The notes: a model not told the origin generated them from the letters alone. Positions 1,502-26,561 are shown, counted from the first letter of the stretch. The stretch is DNA of 47,149 nucleotides from Raillietiella orientalis (GCA_036172245.1 JAYWIR010000068.1:434001-481149), one strand, 5' to 3'. Translations and numbers: made by a program.

Positions 1502-1514
1502 GTCTTCCCCTTTT

Positions 1515-8860: not shown

Positions 8861-9099
8861 AAGACCTCCACTTGTCTGTACTCGTAGGAGTTAAAGTGAG
8901 AGGCTTTATGGTTTCTGTCGGATGAGGAAACATGTGAAACCATGATTCTTCTAATTTGATGAGAGGAGGAGCAATAGGTGACAGTCAGTCTTAGTCCTAT
9001 ATTGGCCTAGTATACGCGATCGGGAGTTGTTCTACAATAAGCCTACATCTTTCAGACTGCACGATGCTTTCTCAAAATAGAACACAGCACCAAATCTCA

Positions 9100-9830
9100 T
9101 TACCACTGTTAGTTAGTTTTGGATGTTCGGTGTTGTACCCATGTTGATAGATGGTTGTAGCATCTTTCAACCTCAGAGCAGCTTTTGTATTGGATGTATT
9201 GATCATTATAGTTTTCATGCTGTTTACTGATTCAACTAGGAAGGCGAGCCCTTTATATAGTACTATATGAGATTGAGGATCACAACATCCTTCTGCAGTC
9301 CGTTCATCCCAGTTAGTGTAACCGTATTCACCATCAAATCCATAGTTGTCCTGCAGAGCTAATTGATATGCAGATGATGTGATTCTTTTCCCAGTCTTCG
9401 TCTATAAGGGCTAACTCATTTCTAATCTTAATTTGCTCACAATAACGCTTGAATAATGAATGTTCTCGTAAATGTATTCAGATCCTTGACAACTACCTTT
9501 GTCGCCTGTTATTTGCCAAGCTAATAAATGGTTGAAAACTTATGAGCTGTTGGGCGTAATCCCAGCTCTTAGTTGGCCTTTAGACGTTGTAAATTCTCCA
9601 TATTGATGAAGTTGATTGCGTGTTTCTCCGGACATATGAGTTCTATCGTTTACAGCAAACTGTTGTGCAACAATACTAACGTGAGAGCGCATGCCACAGT
9701 GGTAAACGATCATAGACTCCTCTAGCATGCAGGAGTATAAGTGTATATATCCAGTCCCTCTGCGTTGGAGAACCTGTACATTTAAAATATTGGTGACAAA
9801 CTCCTGCTCTTAGATACAAGTTTCAACCTG
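9100..9830 (-). pseudogene. rep: Heavily decayed CRESS Rep (unit 0)
   Basis: GTGYIHLYSCM (motif II-like), EHSLFKRYCEQIK, NGLQKDVVILNL (Walker B-like), VESVNSMKTIMI; lies immediately left of an ori-like remnant. Confidence 0.4.
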
Positions 9831-9861
9831 TGAAATTGATATTACAGTGATATTTGCGCGC

Positions 9862-9896
9862 GAGAAATTGCAACCATAGCCAATAATACTCGGGTA
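9862..9896 (+). other. Decayed CRESS origin remnant (unit 0)
   Basis: GAGAAATTGCAACC...CAATAATAC (9881-9889) aligns to CAGAAATTGCAATC...TAGTATTAC of ori1; 2 mismatches to CAGTATTAC; right arm of the stem lost. Confidence 0.4.
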
Positions 9897-10589
9897 AACA
9901 ACCGGACTGGGAAAACACCTAAACATGTTAACATAACTTGACGCAAACATGATGCAGCAATCTTATGTATCTACCTGATTGTACTGTTACGCAAGTGATG
10001 GATTGTGAGCCTATGTGCTCCGTGTGTTTTGGAATTCACTGTCACAACCCTCCATAGTTTACTGTTTGAGTGTCAACCAATACACAGTGTAATGCATTTT
10101 GCTCACTGCGATTTTATCTCCATTGTAGTCCGCATTTACTGATGATTTTGTCTGCTCAGTCCGTGGAACAAAATCAATCATCTAAACTATCATGAATAGT
10201 TGAAAAAGTGACAAGGAAGTACATCTTTAAAATGATAATGACCAACATAATCCTGCAGTGCCTTTCAAGATTGCATGTCCAGTCTATAGCCAAGCACATG
10301 TAACATTTTTCATTCGATTTTTTGGCGTATAAGCACTTCATGTTTCTGCCATAGTATAGGGTATTTATGAAATGAATGTTTGAAAATGTTAAAAATTACA
10401 GCTCTTAATGATTCAAATGATAATTTCAGCACTGAAGGGTGAAGTGTAGTTATTGTTTCAAAGGAAGCTCATGAAGAAGAAGCATTTAAATTATGCAATC
10501 AGTAACTGAAATTTCTGAATAAATATAAAATTGAGAATGTATTAGAAAGTCTAATTAAAGTGGTCAGGAGGTCAAGAGGGTTTTCGGGG

Positions 10590-11507
10590 ATGCCTGTTGT
10601 AACGCGTTATCGTTGTCGTGCTTATCAGCGAAGAATGCGGATGTTGTTTTATTTGGGGAGGCGACGTGCGGTCTCATATCGTCTCAGGGGAAATGTTCGG
10701 AATTATAATTATCGTCAAAAAGGCGTAATTCTATAAAGAGGAATACTTGGGCTGATGCTTTAATTGTTTTAAGTTCGAGAGTGGCTTTTGGTTGTCGTGA
10801 TTTCATTAAGCGTGCTGTTATTCCTCATACAATATATATGGATGATTTGCATCGTAATGAGGGAAATCAAATATCGTGTTTTGTGACCTGGAATTATTTT
10901 CTGAATGATGATAATAGAGAAATATTGAATTTGTGTGGTCTAAAGGATATGACTAATTGTTTTGAGTTCGTGTTGGTGTTAGATGGACTTTTGAACCTTT
11001 ATCTGGAACAATTACTGATGAGAATGAAGCACAGCTTGGCACATTTACTGTAGAAGGGAATTATGGTTATGTTAATTATGTTGTGGCTAATCCCAAAGAA
11101 CACGGTTGTAATACATTTGGAGAATTAACTTATTCAAATGTGCTTCATAATTTGACTTGGCATCAAACGAAGATATCATCTTTCTATTATAAATTCAAAG
11201 ACAGATGTTTGATGTTATGTAAAGGCTTATATACAGGAGTCGCCTATGACAGGCACAGGTGACTGTGTACTGTATACGAGGCCTCGTTGCCCGTGGTTGA
11301 GCACAGAAAAGGATACTCAGATGACTACAAAGATACTTGTTGGCAGTCCTGTTATTGCTAAACATGTTACTTTTAAGGTTCCTGCTGATTGGCCTTATGA
11401 GAAGATAATAGTGCCTGGTCATCAGAAGCTTGTGAAGAATTTTCCTGTTTCGAATCTACAAAAAATATTATTTTCAATTTAAAGGAGCTAGAGACAAGTT
11501 ATATTAA
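10590..11507 (+). pseudogene. cap: CRESS capsid protein, divergent and disrupted (cap0)
   Basis: Arg-rich N-terminus MPVVTRYRCRAYQRRMR; RCPWLST matches RCPWIDS and KYYFQFKG matches TYYIQFKH of cap1; several stops and frameshifts; convergent with a Rep C-terminus. Confidence 0.7.
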
Positions 11508-11509
11508 AT

Positions 11510-11995
11510 AAATTCTTTTATTTCGTTATTGTGGGTTACAATGAATTCTGTTTCTTGTTTTGAGTTGTCGTCAATGAAGTGGACAATTCATCTATCACTA
11601 CTCATGTTTTCGTACTTTGGGTCCATATTAGCCATGATGATCATGAGGACGCTTAAAAAATTTTGTGTACATTTAGTACAGCAGATGATACCATTTTTGG
11701 GCGATTCGATGAGTCCATAATTTATATGTCCCTCGACGTCCATTGTGAGGTCCATAATGATTTTCTCGCCGTTGTATATGTATGCAGCATCGCTGTTCTT
11801 GCAGTTATTTAAGTAAATGGCATCATATTGCATGTATGTATGTTTTGTCGTGGTTGTTTTTCCTGAATTGCCTTGGTAGTCGGCATAACAATGGAGGTCG
11901 CGTTCGTTTGGTTCATTTTGTATTATTCGTAGAAGGTTTAATTGCCATTTTTTTAATATTTTTCCATGCATGTCCCTTTGAATGCCGCCAAGGGC
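11510..11995 (-). pseudogene. rep: CRESS Rep, SF3 helicase half
   Basis: LKKWQ, GNSGKTT (Walker A), KIIMDLT (Walker B), NYGLIESPKNG, IIMAN (motif C), MSSDR (Arg finger). Confidence 0.88.
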
Positions 11996-11999
11996 ATGA

Positions 12000-12650
12000 C
12001 TGAATGTCGCGTTCTACCAGCTTGCCAGTTTGGTCAGTGATATCTCCCAAGACCTCTAAGGTACATCGCGATGCGCTCTGGGAGTGGCCGCTGCGTTGAA
12101 AAGAACTCCACGAGCTGTCTTTCGGCTTCGCTATATGCCGTGATGCGCGTGAACTGCGGCGACACGCGCCCAATGTTGACACATGACGTAATCCTGAAAC
12201 ATTGAGTAGCTGATTTGTCCCTTAAATTGGGGGTCTGCAACTGCCAGTTCTGCGTAGACAGCCTCGATCAAAGAGGCAATCCCATTGCAGTAGTTCTGAA
12301 TTCTAGAACTCCGCCATCCTGACTGTAACCTTGGTCTCCGTCAACTTGGAACTCATTCAGCCAAAGCGGATCGTTCCTCGTCTCAGAGGGGATGGTTGAC
12401 AAGTTCTTGGGGGTCGGAGTTGGCCTGTCTGGCTCGGGGAGAAAACTGTTGTGAAACATCAGAGCCACTTCGGCTCGGCCTGGGACGGAACCTCCTTCGA
12501 GGACCGGATCCTGAGGCTGGAGCTGATGCTGAGACTGGAGACGGAACGGCATCATCAGCTGGAAAGTTGCGAATATCTTTTAGGAAAGACCATTTTGCTT
12601 ATCTAAGCATCAACCATAAAGTTTTACAGCACAAGGTGTAAAAAGGGTAT
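12000..12650 (-). mobile_element. Probable L1/Tx1 ORF2 post-RT fragment separating two Rep halves
   Basis: GC-richer than its flanks; PFYTLCCKTLW and DPLWLNEF...GL resemble post-RT motifs of L1/Tx1 ORF2; no TSD seen. Confidence 0.45.
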
Positions 12651-12976
12651 GTAGCTGGTTCGTTAGTTTCTTGGATAGCTCCATATGTCCATGCGTGTTT
12701 GTCTTCTTTTGTGCAGTACCTTAAGTTGCTCCGTGGTGAACCGCGTGCTTTCTCGAGGTGGCACTTCTGGAAAGGTTTGCGCTTCAAGCCAGGCAAAGTG
12801 CGTGGTTCCTTTAGTTGCATGTATCCTTGGAGGTGTGGTGTGCCTGTGCTTGAGGTTTCTTTGCCGATGCATGCGAAGAAGCGGTTGCATCTGCAACATT
12901 CTTTGATATCCTTTAGGTCCTCTTCTGTAAAGTTGCAAAGGGTGATGCACCAGTTAAAAAATAATGCGTAAGGCAT
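12650..12976 (-). pseudogene. rep: CRESS Rep, HUH endonuclease half (rep1)
   Basis: MPYALFFNWCITLCN (motif I), TPHLQGY (motif II), YCTKE (motif III). Confidence 0.93.
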
Positions 12977-13063
12977 TGTGCGTGGTGTTGGTAATTCACT
13001 GTAAGTAAGACTTGGCTTTCGTTGTGTGTTAAAGGTATATATACTGCGTAACTGCGCAGAAAT

Positions 13064-13096
13064 TGCAATCTGGTAAATAGTATTACCCAGATTGCA
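13064..13096 (+). other. CRESS rolling-circle origin stem-loop ori1
   Basis: Stem TGCAATCTGG/CCAGATTGCA with TAGTATTAC at 13078-13086. Confidence 0.95.
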
Positions 13097-13156
13097 TTTC
13101 GCTGACAACGAAAATCCTTGGGAAATTCCTATATGCTGCAATTGATATTTTTAGTA

Positions 13157-13286
13157 GCTGGTTTATGTCCGCAATCGTGGAAGACTTTGGAATGCGGAAC
13201 AGGATGCTGTTGTCCACGTGGGAAGTGCGTGGCGTAACCCGACCTCGTGGAAGGCTGATAAAGTCGGGTGGGCGTGTCCCACCAGC
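13157..13286 (+). promoter_or_regulatory. Conserved multi-hairpin intergenic element, unit 1
   Basis: Closing stem GCTGGT/ACCAGC enclosing TCCGCA/TGCGGA, CCACG/CGTGG and ACCCGAC/GTCGGGT hairpins; repeated in units 2 and 3. Confidence 0.7.
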
Positions 13287-13344
13287 CAGACTGAAAAAGG
13301 GAGGGGGGATGACTTAGGTCGCCAGTACGCTGTCAAGCAGCGGA

Positions 13345-14252
13345 ATGGGATCACCTCGCGCAGCTCGCTCTCGGAAGAGGAAGGGAACAGGATCGTTTTT
13401 CTTGGCGAAGCGTCGTCGTCTGTCTCGTCGAAGAGGGGGATATAGTACGTTCCAGCGTCGTCGGCGTTGGAATGTGCGTCGTAGGCGTGTGAAGCTGTAT
13501 CGTTCACCTCGATATAAGTTGTCTCGTACGACGCGTGTGGTATCTCGGGATTTGATGTCGGGAGCTGTTCATTATAGTTCATTGGGACCGCTGACGGTGA
13601 CCACGTGAATTGTTCTTGGATGTTTACATATGACCAAACTGTCATGTCTGTTGTAGATCGTTTGCGAATAAAAAATTTGGATGTTTTCGCGAAGTTCTAT
13701 CGATATGTTAGGGTGAAGGGATGTGCAATGAAGATCGAGCCTATGTCCCTAGGTTTAACGATAGGAAATATGGGTGAAGAGTTTGGTATGAAGGTTTCGT
13801 ATAGGAATATGCTTCTGTATCAAGCTGCAAACCAAGGCGAATATTTTGGAAATAGTAAAGTAGAGGATATGATATCTGGCCATGGAGAAACTTCTGGTTG
13901 TTTCGCTCGATACTTTGGTGTTCGGGGTATCCGTGTGTATTCGCGAGTGTATTTGAGGAAGTCGGTTCCAAACTACGGAGGGCAATTGTTGCGTTATGTA
14001 CGTTGTCCTTGGATTGACAGTTCGGAAGGAAGAGATTTGGATGCTGAAACGAAAAGTTATGTGCATATGAACCGCGTACATGTGATGAAGCATATGTGCG
14101 GTGTGGACATCCCAGATGAGTCGAAGGAGGCTTGCCAGTCGGGTGTTTGTCCGAAGAACAGGCGTCTGAAAAATGGTTATCCAAAATATAGAATAACTAG
14201 AACGTACTATATCCAATTCAAGCATTTAAAAGATACTGGCTTGTATCAATAA
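13345..14252 (+). pseudogene. cap: CRESS capsid protein (cap1), one frameshift near 13585
   Basis: Arg-rich N-terminus; FYRYVRVKGCAMKIEP typical of circo-like jelly-roll capsids; YYIQFK C-terminus; AATAAA overlaps the stop (14248-14253). Confidence 0.9.
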
Positions 14253-15357
14253 AGAGACAAGTATATTGTTGATGTTGTATTTCATCAAAAAAGGGAGAGG
14301 GGGGTGACAAAGAACTCAATGTGGAATCAGGCGAGTCTCGGGTTTGCACTGCGCTAGGGCTTGAAGTGCAAGCCCAAGGGAGAATGGTTCCTGAATCATC
14401 CATCATCCAGGGAACTAGAGCTGTGTTGTCCGACTTGGAAATATCTCGAACTATCCATCTGTCACTGCTCATCTTATCGTAATTAGGTTCCCAATTGGAG
14501 AATACGAGAATATGGGGTGGCTGGAAATATTTAATGGGTCTTTGATTCTTCGAGTCGAAGATTATTCCGTTTTTAAGTGTCTCGATGGATCCGTATTGTA
14601 CCAACTCTTGGTTGTCTCTTGTGAGGTCAACCACAATGATGCGCTCACCGTTGTATATGTGAGCAGGGTCTGCCTTTTTGCAAGAGTGCATATAAAGGGC
14701 TCCTCTTTTTAGGTAGAGGAATTTCGCCATCGTGGTTTTCCCAATGCCTCCTATGGGATCAATGTATTTTGCGTTGATCTGGTTGGTGACGTATAATGTT
14801 GAGTATGTCCATTTGCCATGATTTCAATTGTAGGTTAGCAAGGGGGTTGGGATGTGCTCTGCTTGTTAGGCGGAAGCTTTCTTTTACGAAGTTAATGTTT
14901 TTTGAATAAAATTTGGTGTGATTCTTGAGGATGAAGTGTTCGTCTGCTCCGTCCTCGATGAGTTGAAGTATCTATGGATATAGGGTTATTTGTGAATTGT
15001 AAAAATGATTTGTGGTTTACCAGGTCTTGGTAGTCGGTTGGTTCGTTGGCGTCGTGGATTCTGCCGGATGTCCAGGCACGTTTGTCTTCTTTTGTGCAGT
15101 ACCGTAAGTTGCTCTGTGGACTGCCTTTTGCTTTTTCTAAATGGCTTTTTTGAAATGGTTTGCGTTTTAATCCTGGCATGGTGCGTGGTTCTTTGAGTTG
15201 AAAGTAGCCCTGGAGATGTGGTGTCCCTGTTTTAGCGTTGTCCTTGCCGATGCAGGCGAAGAGACAGTTGCAGGGCACCAGTCTTTTATTTCTTTGAGAT
15301 CTTCTTAGGTGAAGTTCATAAGGTGAAGCACCAGTTGAAGAATAACGCGTATGGCAT
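14218..15357 (-). pseudogene. rep: CRESS Rep, full length but disrupted (rep2), with putative intron 14972-15020
   Basis: WCFTL, PHLQGY, YCTKE, GGIGKTT, IIVVDLTR, YGSIETLKNG, ILVFSN, SSDRW; stop or frameshifts near 15316, 15280 and 14760. Confidence 0.93.
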
Positions 15358-15432
15358 GGTGAAATTCCCGGTAAGTGAGACTTGGTTTTGGTCGTCCGTG
15401 CGGTGGTATTTATACTGCGTAACTGAGCAGAA

Positions 15433-15467
15433 ATGCAATCTGGTCAAGAGTATTACCCAGATTGCAT
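15433..15467 (+). other. CRESS origin stem-loop ori2
   Basis: Stem ATGCAATCTGG/CCAGATTGCAT with GAGTATTAC at 15448-15456. Confidence 0.93.
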
Positions 15468-15524
15468 GTAGCTGACACGGCAAAACCTTGGAAAATTCCG
15501 TATGTAAAAGTAGATAGTGTGGTT

Positions 15525-15652
15525 GCTGGTCTTTGTCCGCAATCGTGGAAGGCTGAGGAATGCGGAACAAGCTGTGCTTGTCCACGTGATGCTCGTGGGA
15601 AAGATCCGACGTCGTGGAAGGCTGATAAGGTCGGATGGGCGTGCCCACCAGC
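15525..15652 (+). promoter_or_regulatory. Conserved multi-hairpin intergenic element, unit 2
   Basis: GCTGGT/ACCAGC; TCCGCA/TGCGGA; ACAAGC/GCTTGT; CCACG/CGTGG; ATCCGAC/GTCGGAT. Confidence 0.7.
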
Positions 15653-15710
15653 TACTCTTAAAAAGGGAGGGGGGTTAGGTTAGGTCGCCAGTACGCTGTC
15701 AATCAGCGGA

Positions 15711-16460
15711 ATGGCGTCACCTCGCGCTGTTCGTTCTCGAAAACGAAAGCGTGTAGTATCTTCTGCATTCGGAAAGCGACGTCGTTTAGTCCGTGGTCGT
15801 GCTGGTTATAGCACGTCGGCGTCGTTGGAATGTACGTCGTCGTAGATTTCGTCGTTTGCGTGTGTCTTGTGCTAGGTTGTGGAAGACAACGCGTGTTGTA
15901 GTTAGAGATTTTTTGCAAGGGGCTTCTCATTATTCATCGTTACGAACTGCGGACGGAGACGCAGTGAATTGTTCTTGGATGTATACGTATTTGGAGGACG
16001 CTTCAGTTGTGAAAGATTTATTGAAGCTTTGTAATTTAGAAGAGTATGGTCGTTATTATAGATATATGCGTGTCAAAGGTGTATCGGTAAAGATAGAGCC
16101 TATGTCGCTTGGATTGACTATAGGTAACATGGCGGAAGAATTTGGTATGAAGATGTCTTATCGGAATATGCTGTTGTATCAAACTCCAAACCAAGGGGAA
16201 ACTTTCGGTGCATTGTTTGGTATGCCTTATAGTCGTGTGGAGGATGTAATAGGAGGTCATCGGGAAACGTCTGGTTGTTTTGATCGGTATTTTGGTGTTG
16301 GTGGTAGAAGATTTTATTCGAAGGCTTTTATTGCGGAAACTGAATATTTGGAAGGTGGTCGTTTGACTAAGTATAAGCGTTTCCCATGGACTGATGTTTG
16401 GCAGGGTAGTTCTTTGGATTCAGAGACTTCCATTCGTGCTTGGTTTCATAATTTTCAAAC
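15711..16460 (+). pseudogene. cap: CRESS capsid protein (cap2), frameshifted and 3'-truncated
   Basis: MASPRAVRSRKRK..., YYRYMRVKGVSVKIEPMSLGLTIGNM, RFPWTD; ends at Tx1 APE sequence. Confidence 0.9.
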
Positions 16461-16464
16461 ACCA

Positions 16465-16745
16465 CCTGAACGCGTGGGTGAAGAAATGCACCTAGAAGAT
16501 CGAGAGGATCGGAGGGGGACGGTTGTATTGGCAATGCGGAGTTCGCATCACCTGTGGCATCGCGTTTTTTGTGAAGCTAGCAGTCGACGGCGTCGTCAAG
16601 GGCGTACGCTTCGACAAGAACAATTGGGTTGGCCAGCTGATCTTTAGGTGGTTCTATTCGATCGACCTGATCGTCACAAACGTGTATGCACCGGGCGGCA
16701 AGAATGGGTACCATGAGCGTTCGCGACCTCAGGTTGGTGGGGGAG
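16465..16745 (+). mobile_element. Tx1 family B APE fragment
   Basis: TCGIAFFVK...VRFD...SIDLIVTNVYAP, matching 41441-41944 and 45964-46356. Confidence 0.8.
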
Positions 16746-16749
16746 TCCA

Positions 16750-17105
16750 CGTTTTTTGACGGTTTTACTCGCCGCGGTCAGGCTATTATAGCCCTCGAAA
16801 ATCGTGGGTGTTGGCCACAACCCGTGCACAATTCCGAACTTTCAAGTTCATCACTCATCGCAGATCGCGCCATGCCGTTCGTATTGCCGGTTATGTGGAC
16901 CACTACCTACCGGTCCATCGACACCGGATATATCTTGCAGCCGTCCACAATCATCGGGGTGTTGATCAGGCGTTCTTCAAAGGCTATGTCCGTACAGACC
17001 ACGACGCGCTGACCGCGCTGAGGGCAGAGATCTCTAACGTTTATTTCCTGAAGGGCCTGAGCAAATGCGCATGCCGTACGGCCATCGAACAGGGGCCCAC
17101 CTTAT
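16750..17105 (-). mobile_element. Tx1 family B ORF1 fragment
   Basis: Homologous to the minus-strand ORF1 at 25570-26064 (ARAF...VHITGN...ELEKFGIVH). Confidence 0.65.
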
Positions 17106-17124
17106 GTACAAGCCGCACCGCCGA

Positions 17125-17315
17125 TTTCCCAGGAATAATACCTGGGCTCTTCTGTCGCCGTCGGATCCGCGTGGCCTCTTGGAACGTCAATGGGGACAGC
17201 TACTGACAGGATAAAGCCGACACCCTGCGAGTTCGACCTGGCCCTGCTGCATGAGATCCACGTGATAACCGCGGCAGACGTCCAGGAGATCCAGACGTTC
17301 TCGGGGTGTCGGCTG
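17125..17315 (+). mobile_element. Tx1 family B ORF2 N-terminal fragment
   Basis: FPGIIPGLFCRRRIRVASWNVNG...FDLALLHEIHV. Confidence 0.8.
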
Positions 17316-17801
17316 TTTTTCACCCGGGTGCGCCGGGATGTTTATTAATAAACTATCCAGGAACAGAGTTCCGTGTGTAATGACAAAGAAAAAACGAAGC
17401 GAGGGATCCTCGACACAGGTCGGTATACCGAAAGTCCGCAACAGGATGCAGGGGACCACAAATACAGAAATAAAAAATAAAAATAAAAATATGAGGAGGG
17501 TAAGAGACAGGGGTCTTTGGTGCGGCCGTTCCTTTTCTTCAGAAGCGGCTATGGATGCTGGCAATCTCGCTCCTAACGCGCTCTGGTAGGTGGGTCCACT
17601 CGGAAGCCGAAGACATGTTTACGCTGGCTATTGACGAAGGATGGCCACCATCTCAAACTCTCGATGGGCCTTGTCGATGGCGCGGGTGCAACAGACCGTT
17701 GCGATTACAGCTCCTAAAAACATTCCGCCTGGCATGAAGAAGCGGCGCATCAAGTCTCTTGCGGTGTCCCCCTAGTGCTTGGGAGCTGAGACCGCTGGCG
17801 C

Positions 17802-17826
17802 CGTGGTATACGTTTTTATTCTCGAG
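17802..17826 (+). repeat. 25-nt direct repeat of cap3 sequence at the left viral junction
   Basis: CGTGGTATACGTTTTTATTCTCGAG, identical to 19522-19546. Confidence 0.92.
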
Positions 17827-18564
17827 ATCTACTACAATGATGCGTTCTCCGTTGTAAATGTGTGCGGCGTCTGCTTTCTTGCATGAATGCATGTATATAG
17901 CCTTTTTTTTGAGATATAAAAACTTGGCGAAGGTGGTTTTGCCGTTTCCTCCGACTGGATCATAATACCAGTAGATTTTGCGGTTGTCTGGTTCAGATCG
18001 TATTAGTTTAAGTATGTCCATTTGCCAGCTGCGCAATTGTAAGTTTGCCATCGGGTTTGGGTGGTTTCTGCTTCGTGTTAACCTGAAGCATTCTTTAACG
18101 AAGTTGGTGTTTTTGCTGTAAAATTTAGTATGGCTTTGTAGGATATCTAGTTCTGATGCTCCGTTTTGGATTAGTTGTAGTATCTTGGGTAGAATAAAGT
18201 CATTAAGTAATTTAATTTTGCTTACCATGTCTTGGTAGTCGTTTGTTTCTTTTTGTTCTTGTATCATGCCAAATGTCCACGCTTGGTGGTCGTCTTTGGT
18301 GCAGTACCGTAAGTTGCTACGTGGACTGCCTTTTGCCTTTTCCAAGTGTGCCTTTTGGAAAGGTGTTCTTTTTAAACTGGGTAGTGTTCTGGGATCCTTG
18401 AGTTGTATGTAGCCTTGGAGATGCAGCGTCCCTGTGCTTGCGTTTTCTTTCCCGATGACTGCGAAGGTGCAATTTCTCCTGCACCAGTCCTTTATTTCTT
18501 GAAGTTCTTCATCCAAGTAATTGCATAGTGTGAAGCACCAGTATAGGAAGTGGCCGTACGGCAT
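17824..18564 (-). pseudogene. rep: CRESS Rep (rep3), open but truncated after Walker B; putative intron 18184-18225
   Basis: WCFTLCN, LHLQGY, YCTKD, LRSWQ, WYYDPVGGNGKTT, IIVVDL. Confidence 0.95.
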
Positions 18565-18644
18565 TGTTGTGTAGTGAAATTCTGTCGAGGTGAGACTGGT
18601 TTATGCCTCATGTTGTGATGGTTTATATACTGGCAAACTGCGTA

Positions 18645-18684
18645 GTATTTGCAATCCGGTCAGTATTACCCAGGTTGCAAATGC
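18645..18684 (+). other. CRESS origin stem-loop ori3
   Basis: Imperfect stem GTATTTGCAATCCGG/CCAGGTTGCAAATGC with CAGTATTAC at 18661-18669. TATA-like boxes on minus just left of all three oris (about 13036, 15407, 18622). Confidence 0.92.
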
Positions 18685-18740
18685 CTTATTCGGCAAAACG
18701 TTGGAAATTGTGCGTATGTTGCAAGTTTTTTATAAGTGGT

Positions 18741-18876
18741 GTCTGGTTTGTGTCCGCAATCGTGGAAGACTTAGGAATGCGGAACAAGATGTTCTTGTCC
18801 ACGTGTGCATGTCGTGGCATGATCCGACCTCGTGGAAGGCTCAGTTAGTCGGATGGTGCGCACGCACCTACCAGAC
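18741..18876 (+). promoter_or_regulatory. Conserved multi-hairpin intergenic element, unit 3
   Basis: GTCTGGT/ACCAGAC; TCCGCA/TGCGGA; ACAAGA/TCTTGT; CCACG/CGTGG; ATCCGAC/GTCGGAT. Confidence 0.7.
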
Positions 18877-18931
18877 TCGGAGTATACGGAGGAGGGGGCT
18901 CTATGACGTCAGTTGCAGTTGAGTCATCGGC

Positions 18932-19546
18932 ATGGCAGCACGTCGTGCGCGTGGTTCTCGTAAGGCATATCGTGTAAAGTCTAGTACTGTACCTATTAAG
19001 CGTCGTCGAATTGCTCGTACAGGTTATTCGACTTTTAAGAAGAGGCGTCCTGTATATAATCGCAGAAGGCGTAGTAGGTTGGTAGTCCTCGTTGGCGTGT
19101 TGTTAAGGCTACGCGTGTGGTTTTGAGGGATGTTGTGTTGAATGCTGAGCATTATTCGTCGTTGCGTGTAGCAGACGGGGATCATGTGAATTGTTCTTGG
19201 ATGTTTACGTTTTTTGAAAATGCTAGCAGCCTGAAAGAGATGTTGAAGGAATTGAATTTAGAAGAATTTGGTCGTTATTATCGTTATGTCCGTGTGAAAG
19301 GTGTAGCTTTCAAAATAGAGCCATTGTCTTTGGGTTTGACTATAGGAAATATGTCTGAGGAGTTTGGAATGAAGGTGTCATATAGGAATATGTTGTTGTA
19401 TCAGACATTTAATCAGAGTGAATGGTTTCGAAGTCTTGTTGTTCAACCGTATAATGCTGTTGAGAATGTTATAAATGGTCATAATGAAACGAGTGGATGT
19501 TTCACTCGGTATTTTGGTGTACGTGGTATACGTTTTTATTCTCGAG
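18932..19546 (+). pseudogene. cap: CRESS capsid protein (cap3), frameshifted and 3'-truncated
   Basis: MAARRARGSRK..., YYRYVRVKGVAFKIEPLSLGLTIGNM, ends at GIRFYSR. Confidence 0.9.
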
Positions 19547-22500
19547 CTCCAGTCCTTGGAGTCACAGTCCTTGGAGGACACCGCAGTCAAGGAGCAGGTG
19601 CGGGAGCGTTTTAACTTTCCCGCACCGCTTACAGTTCGGGGAGACAAATCCCCCGGAAACACGGTTCGTCCACAGGTTGGAGTGAAAATCCCAATGCACC
19701 AGCAGGATGACGTCCTGTTTCCAAGTTAAAGGGAACACAGAAGTGTTCAAACCAGAGGGAGGGATCACGTTCTTCGGGGGCACACTCAAATGTTCACTCC
19801 ACCGAAGGACTCCTTTCGGGATGATGCGAGGCGTGGCGGCGTCTGTCTGCTCGCAATTCCTCCAGCCGCCTATGGGTCGTTTTGTTCCTGCAATGGTGCA
19901 GGCGACCTCCCATCTCGCCGGCAGGCAGCTGTCCTCTCTTGCCCTGAGTGCTGGAAGCGCGTCGGCGAGGGGCGTGACGGCCAGGCGAGCCCACTTCTGG
20001 CTGTTCCAGACCTCATGTGCTGTGCAGTACGGGGAGAGGTTGGCGCAGCGCAGTTCCAAGAGCGAAACATCCTGCTACTTAGCCCACGCATGCAAACGTT
20101 CAGGCCGCCAGGCTTCAAAGTTGGTTGCGCGGCTAGAAATCCAGTCGTGGGTTGCCAGGAACCGCTAGAGAGGTTTCAAAGGGAAACCACAGCTTTTCGT
20201 GACGCGCTCCGTATGAGGCAGAAGCGACAGAACTCCATCGCTGCCACTAAAGCGCCGCAGGAGCAGGCGCTCGGGAGCACACCACGGAGTGGCGCTCAGG
20301 AACGTTCGAAGATGCATCTGCAGATCGATTCTCTCTAGCGTCCCATTCCGAAGGGAAGCCACCAAGTCTTTGAGGCGGATCCTGGACCCCGCAGGTCCCC
20401 ACAGAGCGTTCCTCAACAGGCTTTGCGCCTGGATTTTGATTCAGGCAGTCAAATGCCTTGCAGATATTGACCGCGAACGCCACGGCACCCGGCGCTTCCT
20501 CAGGTCGAATGCAGCAACGCCTAGCCGCGGGAGCCACAGATGCGCTTACCTGGCTGTCGTGCGCCGCGCACCTCTGCAGCTGGAGCAACGAGCTCGCGAA
20601 GAACATGTTCCTCTCCATGGCCGTCCGGGAACAGAGTAGGTCTGCTCCGGACTTACCACGGATCCTGCGATCCTGCCTAGTCGCCCGATCCAGAGCTTGG
20701 AGAACAACTTGACGTCCGAATTTACCAAGGTGATCGGACGCCAGTTGTTTCATTGGTGCATGTCTCGGCCTTTGCGGAGGCGACGCATCCTTGCTGAACG
20801 GAACGAGTCCGGGAGATTGTCCGTCTCTCGCATAAGCGCAGAAAACCTCAGCACCAGGGGGATGAGTTCCGCAGCGAAGCACTGGTAGAACTCCGCAGGC
20901 AGACCATCCTCACCTGGAGCCTTACGCTTCTTGAGGCACGCTCTGGCGGAAGACACTTCTTCCGCCGTAAAGGGCAAGTCTAGAGTGGCGCGTTGCACCT
21001 CGTCCACCGCAGGGGCATCCGCCCGCAGAAGCAGCTCCGAGAGACTGCGTTCCGTCGGCTCCCTAGCATACAACATGGAGTAGTAGCGCTTTAGGAGGCG
21101 GCGAACTTCGCCCGCGCCCGAGCACTCCAGGCCCTGGTCGTCGAGCAGACGAGCTGCTCCTGACTGCCAGACCTGGCTCTCGGCCTTGGCCTTGTACTCC
21201 GCAAGGTACCGGACGTCCGGGCATCGGGAGAATTGGCGGGCTTACAGAAACGCTCTGCTGTTGGCAACGCCTTCACGGAAGCCATAGGGAAGCACGCACA
21301 AAGGGAACCGGCTGCAGAACTCGGGGACGGATCTTTTCAGAACGTCCTTGTCCACGAGCTCCCAAACGAGCAAGCTCCGGAGATGCAGGCGGAGCTGTTC
21401 CGCAGCCACCGGGTTTCAGAGCCAGTGGGCCGGCATCCGCCAGACGTGCGTTGGAGGGCCTTTGCCAGGCGGGGGTAGCTCAAACTCCAGGCTGTGGTAG
21501 GCAGACAGCTCGGACGGCATGGGACCTCTTCGACCCACCCGACAATGCAGGTGATCGTCGAGGAACAAATGGTCCGGCAAAGCACGCATCGCTGGATCGT
21601 CGGCCAGCAAATTCGAGGCGTGCACGGACTCGCACACCTCGTTCACCAACCGCTTCTCCCGGCGACGGTGTGTCTCTTCCGATAGCGCGTGGACGCGTAA
21701 GTCTTAACGAGGTGAGCCACGTCGTGGTTGCAGTTGCTGAGCCAGCGGTCGCGCAGTCTCTGGAAATACTCGAGTTTCTCGGTGTTTCGCGCGAAATCAC
21801 ACGGCGTGTACATGTTCGTGACGACAAGTTCGATCGATTCGGACCAGTTGAGCCCACACGACCTTCCTCGTCGAAACAAACGTTCCGCACCGCCTCCGCC
21901 ACTCTGCCTCGGACGAGAAACGCGACTCCGCACGTGTGTGCGCAGTCCTGGCGCCAGTGTAGCGTCCCCCCCGCGCGCTCTTCCAGATCCGATGCCTGGC
22001 GTTCGGAGATGCTACCTATCTCCTTCAGCAGCAGCAGATCGAACGCGCGCAAAGCGTTGGTTACCTTCCGCCTTTTGTCAGCGTAGCGCAGCCCGTTGAT
22101 ATTCCAACAGGCCATGCTGACGCGACGAACGAAAGCGGGTCCATGCATTATTGCTTCGGACATGTCGGTGAGCTCCTCGCCCCGTCTCCTCGAGAAATCA
22201 ACTGGCAGCACAGCGGATTGGGAAGCGGAATCGCTCCCTTTCACCGCCACATCGCACCCAGCTGAGTCCTGGGAGCCTAGATTCATCGCCTCGGGCTGGT
22301 ACCGCTTCCGGCAACAGGCTTGTGCTTGCGCAGTTTAGGGTGTCGCGCTTCCGGGTTACCTCGGGGTGCGCGCACGATATGTTTTCAAATCGGACTCCAC
22401 CTCGGAGTTCGTATGTTGAGAACGAGACTGGTGTTTAGCGTGTCTCTTTGTTTTGGCAGGTGGAGGCTTGCCCCGCCCGCGCGGGAGTCGCCGCAGTCGC

Positions 22501-22989
22501 TAACGCAGCTTCTGGAGATTTGGCTTCTGCAGCCGCTCTCTCGCGCGAAGCGACAGAGAGAGAAGACGCAGCCTTAGTTCGTACCTGGATACGCACCTTC
22601 GGCGTGTTGCGTTTCTGTCTCCCACCTACTTCTAGGATGGGGAATATTGAAGGGTAACCTTCCCCTTTGTGGGCGTCCTGGCGATGCGTGTCCAGCCCGC
22701 GTCGGGTACACCCTCTTGGGAGGTCGACGCCTCCCTCAATTGTTTGGCCGGAGATGCCGGCTCGGATTTCGCGCTCGCAACGGGAGACGGCTCCGTACCC
22801 GTTACGCGCTGCACCTGCTCCGCCAGTGCAGGCGAAACGGCGGTCATTGCCGCCGTCGCGCAATGCTTTATTGCAGCCTTCGCTGCCCGTTCCTTCGCTG
22901 TGGACGGCGTGCTCGCCGGGGCCTTAGGTGAAACGGCCGTTGAGAGTCTGTTCCGGGCCTGCCAGCGCGCGGTTTCCCGGGTGTTTCTC

Positions 22990-23127
22990 GTGGAGGCTAC
23001 TTTATCTTAAGTATTGAGAAGTCTGAATTTGGAAGAATTCGCGAAGTATTATGGATATGTGCGAATGAAGGGTTGTGCGACGAAGATAGAGCCGATGTCG
23101 TCAGGATTGACAATAGGTAACGTGGGA
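22990..23127 (+). pseudogene. cap: CRESS capsid fragment (cap4)
   Basis: LRSLNLEEFAKYYGYVRMKGCATKIEPMSSGLTIGNVG. Confidence 0.88.
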
Positions 23128-23128
23128 G

Positions 23129-24660
23129 TTGCCACCCAGGTACGCCCGAGGCGTTTATTAATAAAAAACTCTACAATCGCGGTACCAGGCCCCGCTGACG
23201 GCCTTATGCACGGGACCTACCGGGACGCCGGGACGCAGCCCGGCGTGGCACTCCCCGGCAGCGAAAGGGGATGGGGAAAAACAAAAGTAAAAATAAAAAC
23301 GCAAACAAACAAAAGAGGTTGGAGGGCAGGGAAGGGATCACTGTTCGCTGAGAGGAGGGCCCATCCGTTGAAGGAAGCCCTCGAGGTCCATCCGTATGTT
23401 CCCCAGTTGGGGCCATCCAGCAGCTCTCCGCAAGAAGCGTTGGGCATATGGGATGACATCCCTCGCGTGTTGACCCACTCCTTGTTGGTGTCGCTCCATG
23501 CCGCCACGATGCCTCGGACGCAGCACAAGGCTGCAAGGGCTGCGGCTGGCTGCAGGGCGTCCTTCACGAAGAGGGGCCGAAGAACGTCTCTGGGGGTGCT
23601 GCCCGTAGGGAGCCCTAGGGTCGCCCCGAACCGTTCCCAGAGGGGTCGGATGGCAGCACAATCCACAATAAGGTGGGGAAGCGACTCCCGCTCCCCGCAC
23701 CTGGCACACGCAGGATCCACAGCTCCCCTCGTCCAGTGGAAGCGGCGCGCGTTGCAGGGTAGACCCCAGTGCAACAAAAGCAACGCCGACTCTTGCCACT
23801 TAAGGGGCAGGATCCTGGATTCCTTTAATACCGGGGGCCACTTCAGCACATCCGTAGGGATGGCGAGCAGCTCGCCCCATCTTCTTAGTCCTCGCGGCTG
23901 GACGCTCGGGATCGTGGCGTCCGCCAGTTGACCCATGGTCGAGCCACTCATTCTCTTCTCCCGTCCCTGGATACAGCAGGAGACTCGCCACCTTGGCGTC
24001 CGACTGCTGTGAAGCGCCCTCCTCAGAAAAGGCAGCGCCGTAGCCAGGCAGGTTGTCTCTGCCCACGTGCTTCTAGCTGGATTCTCCAGGAGATTCCTCA
24101 GAGTGCAGTGGGCGTGGAGGCCGCATCGGAGAGGATTCCGCATTACGTGGCTTCTGTGGTTCACCACAGTCCACGTTCCGATGCTCTCCTCCAGCCAGGC
24201 GGAGGAGTTGGCGGGGCAGAAAACCATCCAGCTGTTCTCCATGGCCAACGATGCCATGCGCCCGAGCTGTAGGCCGCATCTTCTGATCTTCCGGCCGGGG
24301 CACAGAAGAAAAGACGCGAGTCCTTCGCATCGGGACACACGCCTGGCGAGCAGGTGGGCCGGAATGCACCAAGGGGTGCTTCATAACTTCGCTGCGATGG
24401 CGAGGGTTCACCATCGCAGCTGAATCTCTACTCGCTCCATCGTCAAGAGGCCGAGACAGCCATCCCGACGTGGAGCACACAAGTCCTTCAACGGGACTCG
24501 GAGCCTCCCGTTGCCCCAAAGGGCTACGCGAAGAAGGTCCTTTGTCCTCTTTTTACATTCTTTGGGAGCGGGGCAAACAAAAAGCAAGGGGCAAAGGATG
24601 AAGGCCGCAAAAGCGTTGCAAACCGCGGCTCTTTCCGGCAAGTGAAACTTACCTTCCAGA
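23129..24660 (-). mobile_element. Tx1 family B ORF2 3' part plus 3' end
   Basis: LLLHWGLPCNARRFHW...CARCGERESLPHLIVDC; AATAAA and hairpin at 23133-23159. Confidence 0.88.
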
Positions 24661-24669
24661 AAGCTGGCT

Positions 24670-24940
24670 GTTGATGATTTATTGCGAAAGTAAGAGTTGG
24701 ATGATTTCGCGAAGTACTATAGATACGTGTGTGTAAAAGGATGTGCGACGAAGTTAGAGCCAATGTCTTTAGGCTTGATGATAGGAAATATGGGTGTAGA
24801 GTTTGGCATGAAGGTGTCGTATAGGGATATGGTGCTGTAACAGGCTGCGCACCAGGGAGACTACTTTGGAAGTTTGGAAGGTCATCCATACAGCTAAGTA
24901 GAGGATACTCTAGCTAGCCATGCTGAAAGTTGATGTTTTT
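24670..24940 (+). pseudogene. cap: CRESS capsid fragment (cap5) with stops
   Basis: DDFAKYYRYVCVKGCATKLEPMSLGLMIGNMGVEFGMKVSYRDMVL*QAAHQGDYFG. Confidence 0.88.
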
Positions 24941-25280
24941 GGAGTAGAACGTAGTATGATTGTGTAGGATGGAGAGTTCATCGGCGCCATCTTTGATAAT
25001 TTGGAGTATTTAGTGGGAGAAAGTTTTTGATCTTGTTGTAAATGAATTTTGCCTTACTTGGTGTTGGTATGAAGCTGGTTCGTTGTTTTCTTGTATGGCT
25101 CCGTATGTCCATGCATTCTTGTCCTTGGTGCAGTACCGTAGGTTGCTACATGGTGACCCTCTGGCTTTTTCAAGGTGGCATTACTGGAACAGCTTGCGCT
25201 TCTAGCCGGGTAAGGCGCGTGGTTCTTTAAGTTGTAGATAGCCTTGCAAGTGAGGCGTTCCGGTGCCGCTTATGCTCCTT
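24932..25280 (-). pseudogene. rep: CRESS Rep fragment (rep5)
   Basis: GTPHLQGYLQLKEPR, HLEKARGSPCSNLRYCTKD, ILQIIKDGADELSILHNHTTFYSKN. Confidence 0.88.
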
Positions 25281-25289
25281 TTTAGGGTT

Positions 25290-26110: not shown

Positions 26111-26329
26111 CCTGTACGCTGCTTGCTCTGCCATGGTTTCCGCGCTAGGCGCGCCCACCATGGCGCTCCAACTCCTCGCCTTGGACGGCGCAGGCGATTC
26201 TGGGACGGATTCCCCTTATTTTGTACGCTGTGGGGGGGACAAGCCTCCCCCACACCTACCACCATAGTGGTGTCCTTAGGCAACGTTGCCATCGGATACC
26301 AACGATGTGCACAATACACCACACAAGAA

Positions 26330-26560: not shown

Positions 26561-26561
26561 G

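What the first reader, a model, noticed from the sequence alone, without database searches (positions are those of the whole stretch)
9100..25280. Co-oriented archive of several different endogenous CRESS DNA viruses at one locus
Seen: six cap and five to six rep segments, three intact oris (TAGTATTAC, GAGTATTAC, CAGTATTAC) and one decayed ori. Every segment has cap on + and rep on -, even short pieces isolated between retrotransposon fragments. The copies are not decayed duplicates: over IEPMSLGLTIGNM, cap1 (from 13734) and cap2 (from 16093) differ at 8 of 13 codons, all synonymously. Inference: the sequences diverged as replicating viruses under purifying selection and were captured repeatedly at this site. 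Repeated same-orientation capture suggests a hotspot or a selected antiviral memory locus, analogous to EVE-rich piRNA clusters.
Basis: partly seen in the sequence, partly recalled or inferred. Interest (0 to 1): 0.88.

Follow-up and report, generated by a model that had tools for sequence, protein, structure and literature searches.

The report
Tandem array of diverged endogenous CRESS viruses
A repeat-rich stretch of an animal-like genome holds a head-to-tail row of several clearly different, partly decayed genomes of one unsampled group of small circular DNA viruses, taken up at different times, which makes it a rare layered fossil record of a virus lineage rather than a proven immune locus.

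Summary
The core observation holds. Between about 10.5 and 25.3 kb lie five verified capsid segments on the + strand, five Rep segments on the - strand, and three origin stem-loops carrying T/G/C-AGTATTAC at 13078, 15448 and 18661. Copies are only 66-72% identical in DNA. Differences sit mainly at third codon positions (dN/dS 0.06-0.31, synonymous sites near saturation). They therefore diverged as replicating viruses, not as decaying duplicates.

Decay differs sharply between copies: 7 stops in 212 codons at 24.7-25.3 kb against 0 in 1,055 codons elsewhere. Uptake therefore happened at least twice.

Three details failed. The "decayed ori" was not confirmed. The 9.07-9.96 kb piece is a negative-strand-RNA-virus-type glycoprotein fragment, not Rep. 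The sixth cap is unverified.

Co-orientation follows from seamless head-to-tail colinearity over more than three units, later broken by LINE insertions. It does not need a hotspot or selection. My preferred mechanism, not proven, is that a resident copy guided the insertion of later related genomes. The piRNA reading could not be tested. All Reps form one clade at most about 41% identical to anything in 1.84 billion representative proteins.

The parts
9072..9962 (-). Neighbouring, unrelated viral fragment: the N-terminal ~45% of a Monjiviricetes-type fusion glycoprotein, in three frame pieces. It is not part of the CRESS array.
   Evidence: Pfam PF24664 scored E 4.2e-13, 7.2e-13 and 1.2e-3, covering profile positions 14-284 of 653.
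10590..11482 (+). Putative cap of unit 0 (unverified). It has an Arg-rich N-terminus and at least 3 frame changes, in an AT-rich stretch (GC 0.36).
   Evidence: ORF pieces; weak tblastn hit, E 0.24; no Pfam or Atlas hit; GC.
11537..12013 (-). rep0: the helicase part of a deeply divergent Rep, 39-47% aa identical to rep2 and rep3. It has 1 stop in 142 aligned codons and lacks its N-terminal domain.
   Evidence: tblastn; blastp against outside Reps gave 33-41%.
12014..12646 (.). Unassigned 633-bp spacer (GC 0.51) between unit 0 and rep1. It breaks the colinearity of the array.
   Evidence: No self-match; no Pfam hit; no PDB hit.
12647..12976 (-). rep1: the Rep endonuclease domain only (aa 1 to about 110). 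It has no stop or frameshift and is cut off at 12647.
   Evidence: PF02407 E 1.2e-14; tblastn.
13065..13095 (+). Origin 1: stem GCAATCTGG/CCAGATTGC with the loop carrying TAGTATTAC. Iteron-like ACTGCG occurs twice, at 13043-13056.
13345..14252 (+). capA: a full-length capsid-like gene with one frameshift near 13590 and no stop.
   Evidence: Circo_capsid hit below threshold, E 0.013.
14218..15354 (-). rep2: a full-length Rep with 3 frameshifts and 2 stops.
   Evidence: PF02407 E 6.5e-12; RNA_helicase below threshold, E 0.0036; tblastn frames -1/-3/-1/-2.
15435..15465 (+). Origin 2: the same stem as origin 1, with the loop carrying GAGTATTAC.
15711..16506 (+). capB: one frameshift near 15800-15845 and no stop. 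Its C-terminal ~40 aa are lost at the LINE junction.
   Evidence: Circo_capsid E 8.8e-5, 23.3 bits, below the 36.2-bit cut-off.
16507..17811 (-). Insert holding a LINE ORF1 fragment. It replaces the 3' ends of capB and rep3.
   Evidence: tblastn with LINE ORF1 hits 16713-17077 on the - strand.
17812..18564 (-). rep3: Rep aa 1-251 with no stop or frameshift. Its C-terminus is lost at the LINE junction.
   Evidence: PF02407 E 1.5e-15; motifs CFTLCNY, HLQGY, YCTKDD and GGNGKTT are visible; PDB Rep domains.
18651..18678 (+). Origin 3: stem GCAATCCGG/CCAGGTTGC (one mismatch, one wobble) with the loop carrying CAGTATTAC.
18932..19614 (+). capC: one frameshift near 19078-19126. It is cut at about aa 190 by a LINE.
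19615..22995 (-). Near full-length LINE (ORF1-like, APE, RT and C-terminal pieces) separating capC from capD.
22996..23163 (+). capD: a ~55-codon capsid fragment. It covers the same part of cap as capE, so it is a separate copy.
23164..24660 (-). LINE 3' part, with a 387-aa open piece.
24664..24939 (+). capE: a capsid middle fragment with 4 stops in 92 codons. It is nearest to capA.
24926..25285 (-). rep5: Rep aa ~54-167 with 3 stops in 120 codons. It is nearest to rep1 (78-84% aa). It abuts capE directly, so the 3' halves of both genes are deleted.

Best explanation
This is a germline-integrated, head-to-tail array of at least five (perhaps seven) different genomes of one otherwise unsampled clade of CRESS-DNA viruses. 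Each unit runs origin - cap - rep - origin, about 2.37 kb, with the nonanucleotide on the cap-coding strand.

Shown:
- The units differ as separate viruses would, through deep divergence under purifying selection.
- They carry their own private lesions.
- They have very different amounts of decay, so they entered at different times.
- LINEs later inserted and deleted parts.

Inferred: the array grew because a resident copy guided each newcomer. A circular double-stranded replicative form of a related infecting virus recombined with the resident copy, either through a conserved stretch (Campbell-type single crossover) or by Rep-catalysed strand transfer at the shared origin. Either route adds one unit in the same orientation with no foreign DNA between units. 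Co-orientation and clustering then follow from the mechanism and need no selection.

The locus is therefore best read as a layered fossil record. A role as a small-RNA source is possible but not shown.
For: (1) Identity of the parts:
- Pfam Viral_Rep on 3 Rep pieces.
- Cressdnaviricota Rep clusters in the Atlas.
- PDB circovirus-type Rep domains, E 1.7e-12 to 1.7e-6.
- Three folded origin stem-loops.

(2) Divergence as viruses:
- Of 20 copy pairs, 18 could be computed. pS is 0.49-0.90 and pN 0.13-0.37.
- dN/dS is 0.059-0.305 in the 15 pairs where dS is defined.
- An independent nucleotide alignment gives mismatches of 0.09-0.36 at codon positions 1 and 2 against 0.44-0.57 at position 3 in the Rep N-terminus and cap body. 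The less alignable cap N-terminus shows the contrast less cleanly.
- The intergenic region shows no codon periodicity and only 0.17-0.36 mismatches, so it is better conserved than silent sites.

(3) Different ages:
- capE plus rep5 have 7 stops in 212 codons. Stop-free segments total 1,055 codons.
- Fisher p = 1.6e-6 as entered, with 0/1198 for the stop-free class.
- Implied neutral change is about 0.21 (0.08-0.43) against less than 0.018.
- rep2 holds 5 of the 8 lesions in the central block (binomial p = 0.0065 before correction for six segments).
- The three cap frameshifts lie at different places.

(4) Seamless colinearity:
- 12656-13929 aligns with 15039-16306. 14623-16319 aligns with 17824-19541. 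12668-13947 aligns with 18256-19546.
- ori 1 to ori 2 is 2,370 nt. ori 2 to ori 3 is 3,213 nt, including a 1,305-nt LINE-bearing insert.

(5) Unit size and layout match free viruses. Two circular IMG/VR genomes of 2,335 and 2,279 nt carry the identical stem and TAGTATTAC on the cap strand, opposite rep.

(6) One clade. All 6 window Rep pieces fall on one side of a branch (SH-aLRT 96) against 46 nearest outside proteins and the 2 IMG/VR Reps.

(7) Chromosomal residence. LINE pieces inside the array have relatives elsewhere in the window.
Against: - The guiding step was not observed.
- The sliding-window comparison shows no change of relationship at the origin. Junctions 1 and 2 are the closest pair on both sides of it, at 0.72-0.84. 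The only switch lies inside cap, near 13540-13700. Rep nicking at the origin therefore has no direct support. The cap mosaic could equally be older recombination among free viruses.
- At 66-72% identity, homologous recombination is inefficient.
- Unit 0 is separated from the rest by a 633-bp unassigned spacer and is not colinear. At least one join was therefore not guided.
- Age heterogeneity within the central block (rep1 to capC) is weak after correction for multiple tests. That block could be a single event.
- No reads, no second genome and no genome-wide EVE density could be examined.
- The outgroup of the tree was chosen by similarity to rep3, which favours monophyly, above all for rep0.
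Confidence: 0.45

Rival explanations
1. Single uptake of a mixed multimer. In a cell co-infected by several related viruses, rolling-circle or recombination-dependent replication produced a head-to-tail hetero-multimer. It was joined into a chromosomal break in one event. Only the older right-hand fragment and unit 0 would be separate events.
For: Colinearity across more than three units is seamless, with no foreign DNA. Lesion loads in the central block are low and similar apart from rep2. Relationships along cap are mosaic.
Against: Every successive unit is a different virus at species-like distance (66-72% nt). Replication of a circle mostly yields multimers of the same genome, so a switch at every unit is unlikely (my inference from established rolling-circle replication). 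rep2 carries 5 of the 8 lesions in the block (p = 0.0065 uncorrected).
Confidence: 0.2
2. Repeated independent insertions accumulated in a permissive or selected region, either an integration hotspot or an EVE-collecting small-RNA (piRNA-type) cluster that keeps virus fragments in one orientation as antiviral memory.
For: The window is LINE-rich with no host gene found. An unrelated RNA-virus-type glycoprotein fragment lies next to the array. Uptake happened at different times. Between 16.7 and 28.9 kb, five LINE pieces are on the - strand against one small + piece, and the glycoprotein fragment is also on -.
Against: Independent insertions do not explain colinear unit-to-unit joins. The virus is ambisense, so one transcript direction is antisense to only one of its two genes. 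The orientation count of 6 against 1 is not significant (about 0.125 two-sided, my arithmetic). LINEs elsewhere in the window point both ways. No small-RNA or expression data could be obtained.
Confidence: 0.2
3. One virus integrated once as a multimer, or was tandemly duplicated afterwards, and the copies then drifted apart neutrally.
For: The tandem head-to-tail layout is what a homo-multimer gives. Tandem complete circovirus genomes are reported in carp and Sinocyclocheilus (PMC6372831, passages seen).
Against: Synonymous sites are near saturation while 1,055 codons carry no stop. dN/dS is 0.06-0.31. Third codon positions differ about twice as often as first and second, and the non-coding spacer is better conserved than silent sites. 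No lesion is shared between copies.
Confidence: 0.03
4. Assembly artefact or contamination: free viral DNA or reads from several viruses wrongly chained into a host contig.
For: No reads could be laid on the locus and no run was listed, so the assembly is unchecked.
Against: LINE fragments related to other LINEs of the same window interrupt the units. The copies carry frameshifts, stops and internal deletions typical of chromosomal decay. Diverged units cannot arise by collapsing or duplicating reads.
Confidence: 0.05

Closest known systems
Tandem full-length endogenous circoviral elements in cyprinid fish (Dennis et al. 2019, PMC6372831; passages read)
   Same: Complete circovirus-type genomes, with cap as well as rep, arranged in tandem in an animal germline.
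   Different: The passages I read do not describe deep divergence between the tandem units. Here units are 66-72% identical with saturated silent sites and unequal decay, so they are different viruses taken up at different times. The Rep clade here is also far from any sampled protein (at most about 41% identity over full length).
EVE-rich unidirectional piRNA clusters of Aedes mosquitoes (PMC7161354; only the search listing and start of the abstract were seen)
   Same: Fragments of unrelated viruses lie together with retrotransposons in one locus, with a possible strand bias.
   Different: Those EVEs are mostly fragments of RNA viruses, and small-RNA output is measured. Here there are near-complete ambisense DNA-virus units in colinear head-to-tail order, and there are no small-RNA data.
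Geminivirus-related DNA repeats in Nicotiana (Bejarano et al., as cited in PMC3198968; passage seen)
   Same: Multiple repeats of a Rep-bearing circular ssDNA virus in a host chromosome.
   Different: The host is a plant and the repeats belong to one family. Whether those repeats are diverged like these I did not check.
Free circular CRESS genomes L001 and L002 (IMG/VR contigs)
   Same: They share the identical 9-bp stem and TAGTATTAC. The nonanucleotide is on the cap strand opposite rep, the two genes are ambisense, and the size is 2.28-2.34 kb.
   Different: Rep is only about 33% identical in the N-terminal domain, cap is not detectably similar, and they fall outside the window clade in the tree.
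Circovirus-like EVEs of the isopod Armadillidium vulgare (Thézé et al. 2014, PMC4231630; passages seen)
   Same: Many (20) circovirus-like EVEs form one host-specific clade of an unclassified CRESS lineage, alongside Mononegavirales-type EVEs in the same genome.
   Different: The words tandem, cluster and hotspot do not occur in that text. Those elements are reported as Rep-derived fragments, not as an array with cap and origins.

Membership tests
Cressdnaviricota (Rep-encoding circular ssDNA viruses) | HUH endonuclease domain of the viral Rep type | tested here: met
   PF02407 scored E 1.5e-15, 1.2e-14 and 6.5e-12, all above the 26-bit cut-off. Motifs CFTLCNY, HLQGY and YCTKDD are readable. 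PDB Rep domains were hit.
Cressdnaviricota (Rep-encoding circular ssDNA viruses) | Superfamily 3 helicase domain fused to the endonuclease | tested here: inconclusive
   The Walker A-like GGNGKTT and the downstream region align to outside Reps over aa 8-248. Pfam RNA_helicase reached only 18.2 bits against a 21.5-bit cut-off.
Cressdnaviricota (Rep-encoding circular ssDNA viruses) | Origin: nonanucleotide NAGTATTAC in the loop of a stem-loop between the genes | tested here: met
   Three sites against 0.47 expected, with fold z-scores -6.2, -6.0 and -3.5.
Circoviridae | Capsid of the circovirus family (Pfam Circo_capsid) | tested here: inconclusive
   Hits were below threshold only: 23.3 and 16.2 bits against a 36.2-bit cut-off, in 2 of 3 long copies. 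The structure model was unusable (pLDDT 31). A PDB profile search found nothing.
Circoviridae | Genome of about 1.7-2.1 kb (size range recalled, not from a call) | tested here: not met
   The origin-to-origin unit is 2,370 nt.
Circoviridae | Rep placed inside the family in a tree with named reference viruses | not testable with these tools
The nearest unnamed proteins are 31-41% identical.
Cyclovirus-type genome layout | Nonanucleotide on the cap-coding strand with rep on the complementary strand (definition recalled from the ICTV description) | tested here: met
   AGTATTAC is on the + strand with cap; rep is on the - strand. The same layout is seen in L001 and L002. This shows layout only, not genus membership.
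Homo-multimer tandem EVE (one virus, one event) | Units identical at integration, differing only by neutral decay | tested here: not met
   dN/dS is 0.06-0.31 with saturated dS, and there is a codon-position contrast.
piRNA cluster holding EVEs | Production of 24-31 nt small RNAs from the locus | not testable with these tools
   No sequencing run was listed.
piRNA cluster holding EVEs | Transposon-rich, gene-poor region with a strand bias of its inserts | tested here: inconclusive
   Only LINE domains were found besides the viral genes. Within 9-29 kb, inserts run 6 on - against 1 small + piece, which is not significant, and orientations are mixed elsewhere.

The most novel reading that the evidence does not exclude
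A self-seeding endogenous virus locus. Once one genome of this virus clade sat in the germline, its conserved origin and flanking sequence acted as a landing pad. This pad captured later, related infecting genomes in register and in the same orientation. The host thus keeps an ordered, time-stamped series of the viruses that infected its lineage. That series may also be read out as small RNAs against current relatives.
Probability: 0.15. Interest if true: 0.85.

Novelty: new variant of a known kind. Interest (0 to 1): 0.62.

Why it matters
Endogenous circular ssDNA virus remains are usually lone Rep fragments. Liu et al. 2011 list 302 Rep-like sequences against 3 capsid-like ones (PMC3198968, table seen). 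Dennis et al. 2019 state that the vast majority derive from rep (abstract highlights).

Here one locus keeps capsid genes, Rep genes and origins of several species-level-different members of one unsampled virus clade, with different ages. This gives three things:
- near-complete gene sets of an unknown virus group tied to a host;
- internal time points for the long-term evolution of that group under purifying selection;
- a concrete test of whether an endogenous copy promotes the capture of later relatives.

If that test is positive, it would change how clustered viral fossils are read. Clustering is often taken as a sign of selection for immunity.

Tried and rejected
- Whole genome: none is held, so clustering genome-wide could not be tested.
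- Sequencing runs: none was listed, and no RNA holder was listed. No read support, expression or small-RNA check was possible, and read laying was not used.
- Earlier findings: nothing for this genome or for the Rep sequence.
- Close exogenous relatives of Rep:
  - word-based search found 4 hits, the best 49% identical over 33% of the query;
  - IMG/VR and metagenome scans with rep3 found none;
  - the ori pattern found nothing in metagenome contigs.
- Capsid:
  - homologue search found none;
  - the AlphaFold model from a 4-row alignment had pLDDT 31 and was not used for fold search;
  - the PDB profile search found none.
- Putative cap of unit 0: the Atlas gave no usable hit.
- Glycoprotein fragment: a search among longer proteins found none.
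- Spacer 12014-12646: no Pfam or PDB match.
- Decayed ori: the candidate at 10236-10285 was rejected as unproven.
- Unit boundaries at the Rep nick site: tested by sliding-window identity, with no discontinuity at the origin. I do not claim this.
- Rejected idea: the fragments capD and capE as two halves of one copy split by a LINE. They cover the same part of cap and are only 78% identical.
- Rejected idea: LINE reverse-transcriptase template switching onto viral mRNA as the source of capD. capD is antisense to the adjoining LINE.
- Tandem Repeats Finder: nothing relevant.
- Literature:
  - five searches found no report of a tandem array of deeply diverged CRESS genomes;
  - these cover only the held open-access library;
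  - I read passages only of PMC6372831, PMC6069186, PMC4231630 and PMC3198968, and no supplements.

Full report
**What is there**

The window is rich in non-LTR retrotransposons. Endonuclease (APE), reverse-transcriptase and CCHC ORF1 domains were found, and no host gene.

Between about 10.5 and 25.3 kb lie pieces of small circular Rep-encoding ssDNA (CRESS) virus genomes.

- **Rep pieces, all on the - strand:** 11537-12013 (rep0, helicase part), 12647-12976 (rep1, endonuclease domain), 14218-15354 (rep2), 17812-18564 (rep3) and 24926-25285 (rep5).
  - Three of the six Rep pieces scanned pass Pfam Viral_Rep, with E 1.5e-15, 1.2e-14 and 6.5e-12.
  - The others were placed by tblastn against those.
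  - rep3 shows the motifs CFTLCNY, HLQGY, YCTKDD and a GGNGKTT P-loop.
  - rep3 also matches solved circovirus-type Rep endonuclease domains and Cressdnaviricota Rep clusters.
- **Capsid-like pieces, all on the + strand:** 13345-14252 (capA), 15711-16506 (capB), 18932-19614 (capC), 22996-23163 (capD) and 24664-24939 (capE).
  - Their capsid identity rests on four things: an Arg-rich N-terminus, position, mutual similarity, and Circo_capsid hits below threshold.
  - A structure model was unusable (pLDDT 31).
  - Sequence searches found no outside relative.
- **Origins:** AGTATTAC occurs three times, against 0.47 expected.
  - Each occurrence is in the loop of a 9-bp stem placed between the starts of rep and cap.
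  - DNA folds give -10.1, -10.7 and -7.3 kcal/mol (z -6.2, -6.0 and -3.5).
  - The third stem has one mismatch and one wobble.

The core is right, including the exact codon claim. IEPMSLGLTIGNM starts at 13734 and at 16093, and 8 of 13 codons differ, all silently.

Three details did not hold.

- I could not confirm a decayed origin. The one candidate (10236-10285) shares only an 11-nt match with ori 2 and does not fold. Relaxed motif matches are at chance level.
- The sixth cap (10590-11482) is only putative.
- The left end of the stated range (9072-9962, - strand) is not CRESS. It is the N-terminal part of a Monjiviricetes-type fusion glycoprotein.

**Architecture**

The order is as follows:

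- putative cap0, then rep0;
- a 633-bp unassigned spacer;
- rep1, ori 1, capA;
- rep2, ori 2, capB;
- a 1,305-nt insert with a LINE ORF1 piece;
- rep3, ori 3, capC;
- a near full-length LINE;
- capD;
- a LINE 3' part;
- capE joined directly to rep5.

In each unit, rep and cap start on either side of the origin and end facing each other, as in a circular ambisense genome opened at the origin.

Origin 1 to origin 2 is 2,370 nt. Origin 2 to origin 3 is 3,213 nt including the insert.

Long alignments show that 12.6-19.6 kb is colinear with more than three head-to-tail units, with no foreign DNA apart from the LINE piece. These alignments are 12656-13929 with 15039-16306, 14623-16319 with 17824-19541, and 12668-13947 with 18256-19546.

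The nonanucleotide is on the cap-coding strand. I recall this as the cyclovirus-type layout. The same layout, the identical stem and a similar size (2,335 and 2,279 nt once the 121-nt terminal overlaps are removed) occur in two free circular genomes from IMG/VR.

**The copies are different viruses**

- DNA identity between units is 66-72%.
- Protein identity is 52-67% for cap and 54-79% for Rep among the main copies. rep0 is only 39-47% identical to the others.
- Of 20 copy pairs, 18 had enough aligned codons.
  - The proportion of silent differences is 0.49-0.90, and of replacement differences 0.13-0.37.
  - dN/dS is 0.059-0.305 in the 15 pairs where it is defined. The other three pairs are saturated.
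- Because protein-guided alignments favour low dN, I repeated the count on a plain nucleotide alignment of the three origin-spanning regions.
  - In the Rep N-terminus and the cap body, mismatch is 0.09-0.36 at codon positions 1 and 2 against 0.44-0.57 at position 3.
  - In the poorly alignable cap N-terminus the contrast is weaker; positions 1 and 2 reach 0.27-0.55.
  - The non-coding region between the genes has no periodicity and only 0.17-0.36 mismatch.
  - That region is therefore better conserved than silent sites.
- Neutral decay after integration cannot give this pattern. The divergence arose while these sequences replicated as viruses.
- At 66-72% identity each unit would count as a separate species under the 80% rule that I recall for Circoviridae.

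**Different ages**

Lesions are private to each copy.

- Each of the three long caps has one frameshift, at a different place in each.
- rep1 and rep3 have no lesions.
- rep2 has three frameshifts and two stops.
- capE plus rep5 have seven stops in 212 codons and have lost the 3' halves of both genes.
- rep0 has one stop in 142 codons.

From the fraction of substitutions that create stops in these sequences (0.053), three estimates follow:

- The 1,055 stop-free codons imply less than 1.8% neutral change since integration (95% bound).
- The capE-rep5 unit implies about 21% (8-43%).
- rep2 implies about 5% (0.6-18%).

The contrast between the old unit and the stop-free class gives Fisher p = 1.6e-6 (entered as 7/212 against 0/1198).

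The nearest relatives of the old unit are rep1 (78-84% aa) and capA. The same virus sub-lineage therefore appears twice, at very different ages.

Within the central block the only sign of unequal age is rep2, with 5 of 8 lesions (p = 0.0065 before correction for six segments).

**Relatives**

An exhaustive HMMER search of 1.84 billion representative proteins gave 8,821 hits at E <= 1e-3 but only 4 at E <= 1e-30. The best was 37% identical (E 3e-38), and none exceeded about 41% over the full length.

In a quick maximum-likelihood tree, all six window Rep pieces fall on one side of a branch (SH-aLRT 96). On the other side are 46 of the nearest outside proteins and the two IMG/VR Reps.

Two caveats apply. 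The outgroup was chosen by similarity to rep3, and the N- and C-terminal pieces overlap only through rep3. The placement of rep0 is therefore the least secure.

No close relative was found in IMG/VR or in metagenome contigs.

**How it most likely arose**

Random independent insertions would give random breakpoints, random orientation and host DNA between copies. The central block shows none of these.

A multimer of a single virus is excluded by the divergence.

Two routes that keep register remain.

- **(a) Serial capture guided by a resident copy.** A circular replicative form of a related virus recombines with the resident element, either through a conserved stretch or at the shared origin. 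This adds one co-oriented unit.
- **(b) One-off uptake of a mixed multimer** formed during co-infection.

I prefer (a) for three reasons:

- Every successive unit is a different virus.
- Uptake at more than one time is demonstrated for the locus.
- The same sub-lineage was captured twice.

The preference is moderate. The test I could run for the origin-nicking version was negative. Relationships do not change at the origin, and the only switch lies inside cap near 13.54-13.70 kb. That switch may be older recombination among free viruses.

Unit 0 is not colinear with the rest, so at least one join was of another kind.

**Co-orientation, hotspot and immune memory**

Once the array is seen as head-to-tail units later cut by LINEs, co-orientation of the fragments is expected. 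It counts as two to four independent observations at most.

Several features fit a region that tolerates or collects insertions:

- The window is transposon-rich.
- An unrelated viral glycoprotein fragment lies next to the array.
- The LINE pieces within 16.7-28.9 kb share the - strand.

However, the strand bias is not significant. The virus is ambisense, so one transcript is antisense to only one of its genes. No expression or small-RNA data could be reached. The piRNA-like reading therefore stays open, neither supported nor refuted.

**Comparison with what is known**

- Tandem complete circovirus genomes are reported in cyprinid fish (PMC6372831, passages read).
- Host-specific clades of many circovirus-like EVEs are reported in an isopod (PMC4231630, passages read).
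- Capsid-derived CRESS EVEs are rare: 3 against 302 Rep-like in PMC3198968 (table seen).
- Five literature searches turned up no description of a tandem array whose units are deeply diverged and of different ages.
  - The searches cover only the held library.
  - I read passages, not whole papers or supplements.

I therefore rate this a new variant of a known kind. Membership in Cressdnaviricota is met. Membership in Circoviridae is not established, for three reasons:

- The capsid match is below threshold.
- The unit is longer than the family range I recall.
- No named references were available.

**Limits**

- The host is unknown. Weak CpG depletion and the kinds of inserts suggest an invertebrate-like animal, by inference only.
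- No whole genome, no reads and no sister genome could be examined.
- Clustering genome-wide, assembly correctness, dating by orthology and small-RNA output therefore all remain to be tested.

Noticed in passing
window 9072-9962 (- strand): The N-terminal part of a Monjiviricetes-type viral fusion glycoprotein, in three frame pieces (Pfam PF24664, E 4e-13 and 7e-13). It lies directly left of the CRESS array. It comes either from a negative-strand RNA virus or from an env gene carried by a retroelement. No homologue was found by the one search tried.
   Followed up: partly
window 16700-28900: Five LINE pieces (ORF1, APE, RT and C-terminal parts) lie on the - strand, the same strand as rep and the glycoprotein fragment. 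One 138-bp piece lies on +. LINEs elsewhere in the window point both ways. The bias is not statistically significant, but it is what a one-strand small-RNA cluster would look like.
   Followed up: partly
window 647-5166 and 35051-39567: Two near full-length LINE copies in inverted orientation, 96.7% identical over 4.5 kb, each with long open APE and RT frames. They belong to a young, probably recently active family flanking the region.
   Followed up: no
L001 1357-1385 and L002 116-144 (IMG/VR contigs): Two free circular CRESS genomes carry exactly the same 9-bp origin stem and TAGTATTAC as units 1 and 2 of the window. Their Rep is only about 33% identical and their cap is not detectably similar. 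The origin hairpin is thus conserved far beyond protein similarity.
   Followed up: partly
window 13043-13056, 15414-15427, 18630-18643: An iteron-like pair of hexamers 8 nt apart lies just 5' of each origin stem: ACTGCG..ACTGCG, ACTGCG..ACTGAG and ACTGGC..ACTGCG. If these are Rep-binding sites, the Reps of the different units may recognise each other's origins.
   Followed up: no
window 12014-12646: A 633-bp spacer of higher GC (0.51) between unit 0 and rep1. It has ORF pieces of 70-110 aa on both strands, no repeat elsewhere in the window, and no Pfam or PDB match. Its origin is unknown.
   Followed up: partly
whole window: CpG observed/expected is 0.67-1.5 in viral units, LINEs and other DNA, so there is no strong CpG depletion. 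Together with the LINE types and the glycoprotein fragment, this suggests an invertebrate-like host rather than a heavily methylated vertebrate genome. This is inference only.
   Followed up: no
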